DNA of 64,000 nucleotides from IMG/VR virus record IMGVR_UViG_3300009370_000003; one strand, 5' to 3'. Positions 42,982-45,647 of the stretch are shown one piece after another. Position 1 is the first letter of the stretch. Each line of letters opens with the position of its first letter. The notes under the pieces are model-generated. The model made no database searches, was not told the DNA's origin, and saw nothing but the letters and a program-made list of their open reading frames with translations. This stretch comes from a virus. The translations under genes and the position numbers were made by a program.

Positions 42982-43150
42982 CTTTTGATTTATTATCCTT
43001 GTAATGGGCGCTGATACGGGCCGGCAATACTAATACATCATTGCAGAATTCACAGCAGCGGCCGTTGGTGAATAGGGGATAGGGATTGTGACCCATATCC
43101 AAGAGGTTGTCATCACATATGACACATTGTTTCATTTCATCTAATATCAT
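42974..43150 (-). CDS. Small Cys-rich (Zn-binding) protein, 58 aa
   Basis: CVIC...GHNPYPL...GRCCEFCN...V.PAR. Confidence 0.6.
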   Translation of the reverse strand: MILDEMKQCVICDDNLLDMGHNPYPLFTNGRCCEFCNDVLVLPARISAHYKDNKSKDE

Positions 43151-43157
43151 AGTCTGT

Positions 43158-43187
43158 ATAGTAGCACATATAGCGAGGCGCTGTCAA
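43158..43187 (-). promoter_or_regulatory. Sigma70-type early promoter
   Basis: TTGACA-GCGCCTCGCTATATGTGC-TACTAT. Confidence 0.7.
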
Positions 43188-43199
43188 GGCCTATTATGT

Positions 43200-43455
43200 G
43201 ACCCTCTGAGACCCTTTGTTTATAGGGGTTTCAGAGGTATGCACTGTTTTGGTGCATAAATTGGTCTTGAGAACCACCCTATCCAATCCTTAGATGGCTC
43301 TCAAGATAACATAATATGTGGGAATCTCTCTCATGTTCCCGCGACCTTCTCGGTAGATAACCCCAGTGACTTCATTTATAGTGAGAGATTGTCACGATAG
43401 GAGTCTCTCACAGGCGCAATCCACGGTCATATCCACTGGTCAATACCGTTTCATA
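43200..43455 (-). ncRNA. Candidate multi-hairpin small RNA
   Basis: Six tandem hairpins after an extended -10 (TGTGGTATAAT); no sizeable ORF. Confidence 0.5.
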
Positions 43456-43505
43456 TACTAATATTATACCACAATCGTCCATTCTATACTAGGCCCTTTC
43501 CTATA

Positions 43506-43706
43506 TTAGTAGGGGCAATCAGGAAGATTGTCGTATCGAAGCTTTATTAGAGTGTCGATCAGGGTGTCCGTATCTAGCTTATTAGGGATTTTATCGATAC
43601 CATAGTCGGCAATGTCTTTGATTACCAGCCATATATCCTTATCCGCCAATGCACATACAGCATCAGTGATCGCATCTATGTTGTTGTCATTTACTATATT
43701 ACTCAT
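43506..43706 (-). CDS. Small hypothetical early protein
   Basis: Starts just downstream of the promoter at 43716-43745. Confidence 0.6.
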   Translation of the reverse strand: MSNIVNDNNIDAITDAVCALADKDIWLVIKDIADYGIDKIPNKLDTDTLIDTLIKLRYDNLPDCPY

Positions 43707-43715
43707 TATGTATAC

Positions 43716-43745
43716 AGTATATCAAATATGCGGAGGCATTGTCAA
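43716..43745 (-). promoter_or_regulatory. Sigma70-type early promoter
   Basis: TTGACA-ATGCCTCCGCATATTTGA-TATACT, near copy of the promoter at 28418. Confidence 0.8.
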
Positions 43746-43905
43746 GTATTTCGTAACCTCTGAGACCCTTATAGGGCGGGCTATAGGAGAGAGCGCCTCT
43801 TATAAAGCACTCTTTTTATCTACGGGGAGTAGTTTCGACCTTTTCCGTTTCCCCATCTCTGGCCGTTACATTCAATTCATTTCATAATTTCCCATTTACT
43901 AAGAC

Positions 43906-43935
43906 ATTATATCAGAATAGCGGGGTCATAGTCAA
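43906..43935 (-). promoter_or_regulatory. Sigma70-type early promoter
   Basis: TTGACT-ATGACCCCGCTATTCTGA-TATAAT. Confidence 0.75.
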
Positions 43936-44159: not shown

Positions 44160-44753
44160 ATGGACTTCTTGCCCTTCGAAATATATTCTGCACCCTTTCC
44201 ACGGGGAAAATATGGGCGCATATGGGAGATTCCGAACTATCTCAGTGACGAAGAATTGTGGAAAATCACTGATAATATTACTTTGAATCATACTCCTATA
44301 TCCTCTGACATCTATCCGAATAACTCTCATTATGTAGACCACACTAATAAATCTCTATCCATTCTCGCCGCAGCTACTGAGATATTCCGTTACCACTTAG
44401 AGAATAATGATATAAACGCTTCTTATGCCTTTGGAGGTCTTGAGGGCCTTGAGTCTCGTAAGTTTATGCTAGATGAGCGGGTTCAGGGTAGTCCTAAAGG
44501 CATGAGGGAGTATCCGCCTCATACAGATGCTGGTAAATTCCTGACTTGTTTAGTACCGCTGAGTCCTGTGAAGTCTGTTCCGACTTCGTTCTTTGGCTTA
44601 GATAATAGAGAGAAGGTTGTGTCTATACCATGGAAGGTTAACCATGCTTATTTGTTTTGTTCTAGTCGGGAGTATTCATGGCACGGATATGCTGGAGATA
44701 AGAAGCACGACAGATGGGTTCTTAATGTGAATTTATTTCAAGATGATTCTTAA
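44160..44753 (+). CDS. 2OG-Fe(II) oxygenase-like protein
   Basis: PHTD..K.LT, W..N.A..F, SWH.Y, R..LN.N. Confidence 0.75.
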   Translation: MDFLPFEIYSAPFPRGKYGRIWEIPNYLSDEELWKITDNITLNHTPISSDIYPNNSHYVDHTNKSLSILAAATEIFRYHLENNDINASYAFGGLEGLESRKFMLDERVQGSPKGMREYPPHTDAGKFLTCLVPLSPVKSVPTSFFGLDNREKVVSIPWKVNHAYLFCSSREYSWHGYAGDKKHDRWVLNVNLFQDDS

Positions 44754-45565: not shown

Positions 45566-45647
45566 AGATTTATTTTAAATACTCCTATCATGCTCACTAA
45601 AAATAAGATAACACTTAATCCAAAGATTATCTTAACTGCTGTGTTCA

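What the first reader, a model, noticed from the sequence alone, without database searches (positions are those of the whole stretch)
43200..43495. Promoter-driven ~250-nt transcript made almost entirely of hairpins
Seen (- strand, after TGTGGTATAAT): ACGGT/ACCGT; GTGAGAGA/TCTCTCAC; GCGGGAA/TTCCCAC; TCTTGAGAGCCATCT/AGGGTGGTTCTCAAGA; TATGCAC/GTGCATA; CCTCTGAAACCC/GGGTCTCAGAGG. The first ATG stops after 4 codons. Two loops carry GGA (AGTGGAT, AAGGATTGGAT). The G-T mismatches work as G-U pairs on this strand. Inference: an early sRNA, for example a protein sponge or anti-defence decoy RNA.
Basis: partly seen in the sequence, partly recalled or inferred. Interest (0 to 1): 0.7.

Follow-up and report, generated by a model that had tools for sequence, protein, structure and literature searches.

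The report
New pseudoknotted early RNA of marine phages
The hairpin-rich stretch holds a real, promoter-driven non-coding RNA gene of an uncultured marine T4-like phage, whose hairpin-pseudoknot-hairpin core recurs with many compensating base changes in at least eight related phage lineages, matches no described RNA family, and has no known function.

Summary
Observation confirmed.

Only part of the stretch is the conserved entity. It is a 142-nt core on the minus strand (43459->43318). Hairpin H1 pairs through its loop with 7 nt downstream, forming a pseudoknot. Next come an invariant 20-nt junction holding a 3-bp mini-hairpin, and hairpin H3 with an invariant 11-nt loop, CAUGAGAGAGA. H2 is an optional insert found only in some lineages.

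Eleven distinct sequences in about eight types were recovered from marine metagenome and IMG/VR contigs. They show double compensatory changes in H1, H2, the pseudoknot and all five H3 pairs. Each copy has its own sigma70-type promoter.

The long 15-bp hairpin and the TATGCAC hairpin are lineage-specific add-ons. The last hairpin belongs to a PeSL-like stem-loop/promoter module that bounds the cassette.

There is no match in Rfam, in INPHARED phages or in the nearest cultured phages. Transcription was not shown, and the CsrA-sponge/decoy idea has no support.

Best reading: a new family of structured early phage RNA, probably a self-contained trans-acting product. A cis leader, an antisense sRNA and a ribozyme remain open. 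Other first readers of this scan noted the same stretch on this genome; nothing was noted on other DNA.

The parts
43463..43473 (-). Extended -10 promoter TGTGGTATAAT of the RNA. The start is predicted at about 43456-43459.
   Evidence: TATAAT sits at the same distance from the RNA's 5' GUAUA in all types. It comes with TTGACA (L109), TTGACG (L124) or TAGACA (L125-L127) at -35.
43318..43459 (-). Conserved RNA core, 142 nt: H1, pseudoknot, H2, junction with mini-hairpin, H3.
   Evidence: CM R1 scores 177 bits here and 49-182 bits in relatives. Between types A and C the core is 89% identical, against 80% for the adjacent gene and 61-70% at its third codon positions.
43423..43449 (-). Hairpin H1 (ACGGU/ACCGU). 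Its loop carries the pseudoknot 5' strand CCAGUGG (43439-43433).
   Evidence: The stem is ACGGA/UCCGU in L109 and L124, AGUUC/GGACU in L126, and GUCC/GGAC in L125 and L127.
43363..43369 (-). Pseudoknot 3' strand UCACUGG, which pairs with 43439-43433.
   Evidence: CCAGUGG/UCACUGG in types A-E, CCAGUGA/UCACUGG in L124, and CUAGGGA/UCCCUAG in L126, L125 and L127. That is two double changes and one one-sided change, with 7 of 7 pairs kept in all 11 sequences.
43381..43411 (-). Hairpin H2: 8-bp stem and 15-nt loop CUCCUAUCGUGACAA. It is an optional module.
   Evidence: Two compensatory pairs. H2 is absent from L124, L125, L126 and L127. The loop recurs in a different stem in L013-L018.
43343..43362 (-). 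Nearly invariant junction GGGUUAUCUACCGAGAAGGUC, with mini-hairpin ACC-GAGAA-GGU (43354-43344).
   Evidence: The mini-hairpin is paired in all 11 sequences. C-G becomes U-G in L125 and L127.
43318..43342 (-). Hairpin H3: a 5-bp covarying stem (43340-43336 / 43324-43320) around the invariant loop CAUGAGAGAGA (43335-43325).
   Evidence: All 5 pairs show double compensatory changes and 100% of cells are paired in 11 sequences. No shuffle of 500 reaches the covariation score.
43258..43317 (-). Lineage-specific insert holding the 15-bp hairpin (43306-43265) with loop AAGGAUUGGAUA.
   Evidence: Present only in the window, L010 and L011. It is absent in types B, C and E-H and has no other copy. The single change in L011 turns G-C into G-U on this strand.
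43238..43258 (-). Small hairpin TATGCAC/GTGCATA, found in types A and B only.
43203..43237 (-). Stem-loop CCUCUGAAACCC/GGGUCUCAGAGG without a U tract. It is the stem-loop half of a PeSL-like module.
   Evidence: Equivalent stem-loops follow the RNA in every type.
43158..43187 (-). Next early promoter, TTGACA-N18-TACTAT, for the 58-aa zinc-ribbon-like ORF at 43150-42974.
43506..43706 (-). Upstream 66-aa acidic ORF (P0002). It served as the anchor for finding relatives and is not obligately linked to the RNA.
   Evidence: Relatives L019-L024 have the ORF without the RNA, and L124 has the RNA after a different ORF.

Best explanation
Window 43459->43318 (minus strand) is one member of an undescribed family of structured non-coding RNAs. 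The family is carried in the early, hyperplastic region of a clade of uncultured marine T4-like phages, whose nearest cultured relatives are Melnitz, Mosig and HTVC008M.

Shown:
- The conserved architecture is H1, then a 7-bp pseudoknot between the H1 loop and a downstream strand, then an invariant ~20-nt junction with a GAGAA-looped mini-hairpin, then H3 with the invariant loop CAUGAGAGAGA.
- H2 is an accessory insert present only in the window's sub-clade.
- Every copy has its own sigma70-type promoter.
- Every copy is followed by a stem-loop plus a further sigma70 promoter. The RNA is therefore packaged like the ORF cassettes that PeSL elements shuffle in T4-type phages.
- The long hairpin and the TATGCAC hairpin are recent add-ons.

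Inferred:
- Host RNA polymerase makes it early as a discrete RNA of about 140-260 nt.
- Because it is a self-contained cassette whose neighbouring genes change, it works in trans as a folded RNA.
- Because nearly all unpaired nucleotides of the 3' half are frozen while the stems drift, its junction and H3 loop most likely recognise a host or phage factor (protein or small ligand), rather than it acting as a simple antisense RNA.

My odds:
- Conserved RNA structure under selection: about 0.9.
- Independently transcribed early: about 0.75.
- Trans-acting factor-binding RNA: about 0.35.
For: Structure:
- In the seven distinct sequences that carry H2, 5 pairs in H1, H2 and H3 show changes on both sides. 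95.6% of cells are paired, against 38-52% when the partners are slid, and no shuffle of 500 reaches the covariation score.
- Over 11 sequences, all 5 H3 pairs covary and 100% are paired.
- The pseudoknot keeps 7 of 7 pairs in all 11 sequences through two double changes and one single change. The H1 stem has four sequence versions.

Selection:
- The core is 89% identical where the flanking gene is 80% identical and 61-70% at third codon positions.
- The 3' half is nearly invariant between phages whose carbamoyltransferases are 35-46% identical and whose RimK proteins are 79-81% identical.

Promoter: TATAAT sits at a fixed distance in all types, with consensus -35 boxes in several.

Strand:
- One-sided changes keep G-U on this strand. 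These are the mini-hairpin C-G to U-G, the pseudoknot G-U to A-U and the L011 long hairpin.
- All neighbouring genes lie on this strand.

Non-coding: indels are not multiples of three, and the only frames are 4-14 codons of varying length.

Cassette behaviour:
- The RNA lies at the same place, upstream of the carbamoyltransferase/RimK/RNase H block, in four IMG/VR contigs, but with different immediate neighbours.
- Contigs from two metagenome runs join 43474 directly to 42233, which leaves out the RNA and three ORFs.

Not a known family: no Rfam match for three versions, no blastn match in INPHARED, and no CM match in Melnitz, Mosig or HTVC008M.
Against: - Transcription was not demonstrated. 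The only RNA-library contig (depth 2) covers 43446-43594, that is the upstream gene's end, the promoter and 14 nt of the RNA. It could be read-through or DNA.
- The 3' end is unknown, because the stem-loops after the RNA lack U tracts.
- The core folds no better than shuffled sequence.
- The sample is small: 11 distinct sequences in about eight lineages of one phage clade. The pseudoknot and H1 comparison for L125-L127 rests on my own register, because MAFFT misaligned that half.
- Nothing identifies a binding partner, so the trans-acting, factor-binding step is inference only.
Confidence: 0.55

Rival explanations
1. It is a cis-acting leader. The folded RNA stays with the polymerase or transcript that made it and controls what happens downstream. 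One possibility is put/nut-like processive antitermination through the U-less stem-loops of the following cassettes. Another is attenuation.
For: It lies directly after an early promoter and directly before a stem-loop, at the head of a ~20-kb run of minus-strand genes that restarts after a convergent plus-strand gene. The downstream stem-loops lack U tracts, so read-through is plausible. In L013-L018 the H2-like hairpin is part of a ~135-nt leader that runs straight into a 59-aa ORF. That put and nut elements sit in such positions is from my own knowledge, not tested here.
Against: Each downstream gene has its own strong promoter. The gene following the cassette differs between types A/C, B, F, G and H, so no conserved regulated gene exists. 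The 64-kb window holds a single copy although it has many early promoters. There is no similarity to known antitermination RNAs in Rfam.
Confidence: 0.2
2. It is a base-pairing regulatory sRNA. An exposed loop acts as a seed against host or phage mRNAs, masking ribosome binding sites. The candidate seeds are the H2 loop CUCCUAUCGUGACAA (anti-Shine-Dalgarno-like) and the H3 loop CAUGAGAGAGA.
For: Both loops are invariant or nearly so. The H2 loop is kept in a different stem in the otherwise unrelated L013-L018 RNA. A 12-nt complement, counting one G-U, lies at 45592-45581 in a stretch that is 100% identical between the window and L012.
Against: H2 is missing from half of the family. Matches to the H2 loop complement are no more than chance plus the general excess of AGGAG. 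Duplex energies against 185 start regions do not exceed those of shuffled RNA. H3-loop complements occur only on the non-coding strand and at chance frequency. Conservation extends far beyond a seed. The host is unknown, so host targets could not be searched.
Confidence: 0.18
3. It is a self-cleaving ribozyme or another RNA-processing element that cuts the early transcript.
For: It is a compact pseudoknotted fold of about 100 nt, with frozen junction and loop nucleotides and freely covarying stems. From my own knowledge, this is the pattern of small ribozymes. The hairpin-loop-to-downstream-strand topology recalls pistol.
Against: No Rfam ribozyme family matches even at E <= 10. No cleavage evidence of any kind is available.
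Confidence: 0.07
4. It is a DNA-level element, such as cruciforms, a replication origin or a recombination hotspot, and not an RNA.
For: The plus strand folds at least as well. The region is a hotspot of indels between relatives. The A-C mismatch in the last stem-loop would be a G-U pair on the other strand.
Against: A pseudoknot and a loop-to-strand pairing kept by compensatory change have no obvious DNA role. One-sided changes keep G-U only on the minus strand. A promoter is kept in front of every copy.
Confidence: 0.04

Closest known systems
PeSL cassettes (promoter-early stem-loop modules) of T4-type phages (Arbiol et al. 2010, PMC2839356; Comeau et al. 2014, PMC4122927)
   Same: A stem-loop immediately followed by a near-consensus sigma70 early promoter bounds small cassettes in hyperplastic regions. 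Related phages differ by whole-cassette indels at these modules.
   Different: Described PeSL cassettes carry ORFs, whereas here the cargo is a structured non-coding RNA. The stem-loop sequences differ from those of RB49/phi1, PST and nt-1. The RNA's own promoter in the window is an extended -10 type without a good -35.
Known non-coding RNAs of marine T4-like phages: CfrI, PhotoRC-II, wcaG, manA, glnA and abiF (summarised in PMC9964418)
   Same: Structured RNAs encoded by marine T4-like myophages.
   Different: None matches by Rfam covariance models. Most of those are cis-regulatory elements in front of conserved genes or antisense RNAs. This one is a stand-alone cassette with its own promoter.
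HK022 put and lambda nut RNA elements (from my own knowledge; not tested here)
   Same: A folded RNA encoded just downstream of an early phage promoter and upstream of terminator-like hairpins.
   Different: There is no sequence or model similarity. Put has two plain hairpins and no pseudoknot. No antitermination was tested. Downstream genes have their own promoters.
Small pseudoknotted ribozymes such as pistol (from my own knowledge, plus the Rfam scan)
   Same: The loop of a 5' hairpin pairs with a strand about 20 nt downstream. Stems covary while junction nucleotides are frozen. Both are frequent in phage and marine metagenome DNA.
   Different: There is no match to the pistol model or any other ribozyme model at E <= 10. 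The conserved nucleotides differ. No cleavage data exist.
CsrB/RsmY/RsmZ-type protein sponges
   Same: A small RNA with GGA in some loops.
   Different: Only two to four GGA motifs occur. One is inside the pseudoknot and changes between lineages, and the others lie in a lineage-specific insert. There is no array of GGA hairpins.

Membership tests
PeSL-type cassette boundary (T4-type phages) | Stem-loop directly followed by a sigma70-like early promoter | tested here: met
   43237-43203 stem-loop followed by TTGACA-N18-TACTAT at 43187-43158, and a second module at 43763-43716. The same layout follows the RNA in L012, L101, L109, L124 and L126.
PeSL-type cassette boundary (T4-type phages) | Located in a hyperplastic region and associated with indels between close relatives | tested here: met
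   Types A, B and C differ by whole hairpins and genes at these points. Contigs in runs X18 and X5 join 43474 to 42233.
PeSL-type cassette boundary (T4-type phages) | The stem-loop acts as a transcription terminator | tested here: inconclusive
   No U tract follows the stems. No RNA 3'-end data are available.
Any Rfam 15 family | Covariance-model score at or near the gathering threshold | tested here: not met
   Nothing at gathering score. The best hits at E <= 10 are unrelated families at 9-20 bits, for the window, L125 and L124 versions.
CsrA/RsmA-sequestering sRNA | Many GGA motifs presented in hairpin loops and conserved across homologues | tested here: not met
   The GGA of the H1 loop lies in the pseudoknot strand and is not conserved in register. 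The AAGGAUUGGAU loop is only in the window, L010 and L011.
Riboswitch / cis-regulatory leader | A conserved downstream gene, or a gene class under its control with no intervening promoter | tested here: not met
   The downstream gene differs between types, and a consensus promoter intervenes.
Hfq-type sRNA with intrinsic terminator | A 3' GC-rich hairpin followed by a U run | tested here: not met
   The terminator scan finds none on the minus strand in 43200-43460. The sequence after H3 and after the last stem-loop is not U-rich.
Structured functional RNA (general criterion) | Helices supported by compensatory changes in independent lineages | tested here: met
   one double change in H1 within the window's clade plus different stems in other clades, two in H2, two in the pseudoknot and five in H3.
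Expressed sRNA | A discrete transcript with defined ends | not testable with these tools
   Only assembled contigs of one metatranscriptome touched the locus (43446-43594).

The most novel reading that the evidence does not exclude
The frozen junction and H3 loop on a pseudoknot scaffold mark a new class of active RNA made by abundant ocean phages at the very start of infection. It could be a new self-cleaving ribozyme. It could be a stand-alone aptamer that soaks up a host signalling molecule or a host protein. It could be a polymerase-modifying antitermination RNA in a phage group that lacks the T4 middle-mode machinery.
Probability: 0.15. Interest if true: 0.85.

Novelty: new variant of a known kind. 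Interest (0 to 1): 0.6.

Why it matters
Myophages related to the pelagimyophages and cyanomyophages are among the most abundant viruses in the sea, yet almost nothing is known about their early, host-takeover genes. No stand-alone small RNA has been described for this group in the sources I could search.

This is a compact RNA with strong covariation support. It has an unusually frozen junction and loop, its own promoter and a cassette-like mobility. That makes it a concrete, synthesisable object of about 110-142 nt for biochemical tests: structure probing, self-cleavage, ligand and protein binding, and transcription read-through.

It also extends the PeSL idea of modular shuffling from protein genes to RNA genes.

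Tried and rejected
1. Close-neighbour searches that gave nothing:
- The 66-aa ORF and the 2OG oxygenase in IMG/VR.
- The 58-aa ORF, which has no relatives but itself among 5.8 billion proteins.
- Relatives of the 141-aa ORF (L001-L009), which are not syntenic and lack the RNA.

2. The scan of IMG/VR for the H2 loop motif gave 76 hits, all coding or chance.

3. The genome-contig scan for the junction motif gave 5 hits (Streptomyces and others). None matches the model, so they are chance.

4. The metagenome contigs protein scan gave only contigs already held, plus one distant relative without the RNA.

5. RNA evidence: run X20 holds one 151-nt contig at 43446-43594. This is no verdict on transcription. 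RNA runs X23 and X24 held next to none of the sampled words.

6. Target hunting:
- Complement of the H2 loop.
- Complement of the H3 loop.
- Duplex energies against 185 start regions versus shuffles.
- Nothing was above chance.

7. The RNAalifold long-range helix GGUA/UAUC is rejected, because L109's U-to-A change breaks it while keeping H1. Its second helix, CCAGUGG/UCACUGG, is kept as the pseudoknot.

8. MAFFT could not align the 5' half of L125-L127. H1 and the pseudoknot for those were therefore tabulated by script, not by the count of structure pairs.

9. Coding readings are rejected for lack of conservation and because a promoter lies inside one frame. The frames considered were MKRY, a 12-codon frame lost in type C, the MRE... 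frames of 7-14 codons starting in the H3 loop, and a 63-codon frame in L124.

10. The look-up of encoding contigs closed after 10 look-ups. The look-ups of P0022 and P0013 were not run.

11. Type D (L013-L018) was considered as a family member and rejected. It shares only the promoter, the first bases and the H2-like loop, and R1 does not match it.

Full report
**What is in the window**

The 64-kb window is part of an uncultured marine T4-like myophage.
- It encodes gp5/gp6-type baseplate proteins, class I ribonucleotide reductase, RimK and a carbamoyltransferase, and has 37% G+C.
- Its baseplate wedge protein is 39-42% identical to those of Methylophilales phage Melnitz and Pelagibacter phages Mosig and HTVC008M.
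- Near-identical DNA occurs in marine metagenomes of 11 studies.
- Around 42.7-44.2 kb lies a gene-poor stretch of the minus strand with four tandem sigma70-type promoters and only small ORFs.

**The observation**

Folding gives mixed signals.
- The 256-nt minus-strand RNA folds to -75.5 kcal/mol (z = -2.63).
- The plus strand folds better (z = -4.14).
- The first 142 nt alone fold no better than shuffles (z = 0.09).

Thermodynamics therefore neither picks the strand nor singles out the part that proves to be conserved.

**Finding relatives**

DNA searches of deposited phages found nothing, and Rfam found nothing. Relatives came from three routes.
- Upstream gene: homologues of the 66-aa ORF and their contigs.
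- Covariance model: model R1 built from the first six distinct sequences picked out L109 and L112.
- Motif scans of IMG/VR: two scans with invariant motifs found L124, L125, L126 and L127, and R1 confirmed them at E = 1e-12 to 1e-18.

Hits of the same motif in bacterial genomes did not match the model. The nearest cultured phages have no copy, and the window has a single copy.

**Anatomy of the family**

Eleven distinct sequences fall into about eight types.
- A: window, L010, L011.
- B: L101, L102.
- C: L012, L103, L108, L110-L119.
- E: L109.
- F: L124.
- G: L126.
- H: L125, L127.

The shared features, in order along the RNA, are these.
1. A TATAAT box lies 3-4 nt before a 5' (A/U)GUAUA. The -35 box is TTGACA, TTGACG or TAGACA in types E-H, and a TG extension replaces it in types A-C.
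2. Hairpin H1.
3. A 7-nt stretch of the H1 loop, always preceded by GA, is complementary to the 7 nt that immediately precede the junction.
4. The invariant junction G(G/A)G(U/A)UA..AC(C/U)GAGAAGGUC contains a 3-bp hairpin with a GAGAA loop.
5. Hairpin H3 has a 5-bp stem around the loop CAUGAGAGAGA (UAUGAGAGAGA in type B).

It occurs only in types A, B, C and E. In types F, G and H the linker is 19-21 nt.

**Covariation**

On the model-guided alignment of the seven H2-containing sequences:
- 95.6% of cells are paired.
- Five pairs have changes on both sides: H1 U-A/A-U, H2 U-A/G-C and G-C/A-U, and two H3 pairs A-U/G-C.
- No shuffle of 500 reaches the covariation score.
- Only 5 of 500 shuffles reach the number of doubly changed pairs.
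- Slid partners pair in 38-52% of cells.

This alignment was fitted to the model, which favours the structure.

On the MAFFT alignment of all eleven sequences, the 3' half aligns without ambiguity.
- All five H3 pairs show double changes: GGGAA/UUCCC, GGGGG/CCCCC, GGGUG/CACCC, AGUGG/CCACU and GUGGG/CCCAC.
- Pairing is 100%, with 1 of 500 and 0 of 500 shuffles reaching the observed values.

MAFFT misaligned the 5' half of types G and H, so H1 and the pseudoknot were tabulated by script.
- The pseudoknot is CCAGUGG/UCACUGG (types A-E), CCAGUGA/UCACUGG (type F) and CUAGGGA/UCCCUAG (types G, H).
- All seven pairs are kept in all eleven sequences, through two double changes and one G-U to A-U change.
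- H1 is ACGGU/ACCGU, ACGGA/UCCGU, AGUUC/GGACU or GUCC/GGAC.

One-sided changes that give G-U occur in the mini-hairpin of type H, in the pseudoknot, and in the long hairpin of L011. They are pairs only on the promoter's strand.

**Selection**

- Between types A and C the RNA core is 89% identical, while the adjacent 66-aa gene is 79-80% identical and 61-70% at third positions.
- Two type-C contigs whose genes are 84% identical differ at 3 of 139 RNA positions.
- The 3' half of the RNA is almost unchanged between phages whose carbamoyltransferases are 35-46% identical.
- Indels of 1, 2, 3 and 5 nt, together with short frames of varying length, exclude a protein-coding reading.

**What the other hairpins are**

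- The 15-bp hairpin with the AAGGAUUGGAU loop is a 54-60-nt insert found only in the window's own lineage. It has no other copy anywhere I could look.
- The TATGCAC hairpin is in types A and B only.
- The last hairpin, CCUCUGAAACCC/GGGUCUCAGAGG, together with the TTGACA-N18-TACTAT promoter 15 nt further on, forms a stem-loop/promoter module. A sister module stands at 43763-43716, and equivalents follow the RNA in every type.

This layout matches the PeSL elements described for T4-type phages. Those are composite stem-loop plus early-promoter motifs in hyperplastic regions that mediate cassette indels (PMC2839356; PMC4122927).

Three observations agree with that behaviour.
- Contigs in two metagenome runs join 43474 directly to 42233. 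That is, the RNA's promoter region is fused to the next TGGTATAAT promoter, leaving out the RNA and three ORFs.
- Relatives L019-L024 have the 66-aa gene without the RNA.
- L124 has the RNA behind an unrelated 61-aa ORF.

In all four IMG/VR contigs the cassette nevertheless lies in the same hyperplastic region, upstream of the carbamoyltransferase/RimK/RNase H block.

**Mechanism**

What is shown:
- It is a single-stranded fold under purifying selection.
- It has its own early-type promoter.
- It is a movable cassette.

What is inferred: it is made as a discrete early RNA and acts in trans.
- Its neighbours change while it stays the same.
- Conservation of nearly every unpaired nucleotide of the 3' half, with freely drifting stems, fits a specific three-dimensional surface for a protein or ligand better than a short antisense seed.

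I put that at about 0.35.

The cis-leader or antitermination reading (0.2) is kept alive by two facts. The downstream stem-loops lack U tracts. In L013-L018, an H2-like hairpin with the same 15-nt loop in a different stem forms the start of a leader that runs into a 59-aa ORF.

The antisense reading (0.18) rests on invariant loops, but no target rose above chance, and the host is unknown.

A ribozyme (0.07) and a DNA element (0.04) are less likely.

One GGA loop is the pseudoknot strand, and the other belongs to the lineage-specific insert.

**Novelty and limits**

- No Rfam family matches any of three versions, and no deposited phage genome matches.
- The known RNAs of marine T4-like phages are CfrI, PhotoRC-II, wcaG, manA, glnA and abiF (PMC9964418). 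All but CfrI are in Rfam and do not match.
- A survey of pelagimyophage genomes mentions no such RNA and reports difficulty in even defining promoters (PMC7029224).

I therefore class it as a new family within the known kind 'phage-encoded structured small RNA', packaged in a known kind of cassette.

The limits are these.
- Expression is unproven.
- The 3' end is unknown.
- The family sample is small and comes from one phage clade.
- The look-up of encoding contigs closed before two further look-ups.

Noticed in passing
window 43745-43935 (minus strand): A second ORF-less early cassette lies directly upstream. The promoter TTGACT-N18-TATAAT (43935-43906) drives about 150 nt that are 83-99% identical in types A, B and C. 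These include a ~65-nt invariant block (AUGAAUUGAAUGUAACGGCCAGAGAUGGGGAAACGG...CUCCCCGUAGAU) and a GAAAAGGUCGA motif that recalls GAGAAGGUCG of the studied RNA. In L012 a gene caller placed an 87-aa reverse-strand ORF over it.
   Followed up: partly
window 42233 / 43474: Contigs in metagenome runs X18 and X5 join 43474 to 42233 with two letters in between. This fuses the RNA's promoter region to the TGGTATAAT promoter of the next block. These are natural variants that lack the RNA, the 58-aa, 57-aa and 141-aa ORFs.
   Followed up: partly
L013:3265-3415 (also L014-L018): Behind a homologue of the 66-aa gene sits a different ~135-nt leader. It shares with the window only the TGGTATAAT promoter, the first bases AGUA, and a hairpin (AAAGG/CCUUU) whose loop UCCUAUCGUGAUCAAU equals the H2 loop plus one U. 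It runs into a 59-aa ORF. In the minimum-energy fold the loop pairs instead with CACGAUGG 70 nt downstream.
   Followed up: partly
window 45581-45592 (minus strand) and L012:141-152: CAUGAUAGGAGU, inside the end of a 33-codon hydrophobic ORF just before the 85-aa ORF, is complementary to 12 nt of the H2 loop, counting one G-U. The surrounding ~100 nt are 100% identical between the window and L012, although nearby genes are about 80% identical. Statistically it is not above chance.
   Followed up: partly
window 43381-43388 versus 43322-43329: The 3' arm of H2 (AAUCUCUC) is complementary to the end of the H3 loop plus the start of its 3' arm (GAGAGAUU) in types A and B. This is a possible alternative pairing, and it is weaker (6 bp) in types C and E.
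   Followed up: no
window 43706-43716 and 43150-43158: The 66-aa and 58-aa ORFs start 9-13 nt after their -10 boxes and have no Shine-Dalgarno sequence, so these early mRNAs would be nearly leaderless.
   Followed up: no
L124:1745-1909: After the RNA cassette of L124 comes another promoter (TTGACA-N17-TATAAT). About 150 nt without an ORF follow, ending in a classical terminator (CCCGAUAAAAAAUUUUUCGGG). This may be a further RNA cassette.
   Followed up: no
window 44160-44753 (plus strand): A 197-aa ORF of no known family lies on the opposite strand, convergent with the upstream minus-strand genes. It is conserved in L012 (920-1528). The four tandem promoters restart minus-strand transcription just after it.
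   Followed up: no
L019-L024: The more distant homologue of the 66-aa gene (79 aa, 67% identical) is followed 41 nt later by an 813-aa ORF of no Pfam family instead of the RNA. Peptide deformylase and a 2OG oxygenase lie upstream.
   Followed up: no
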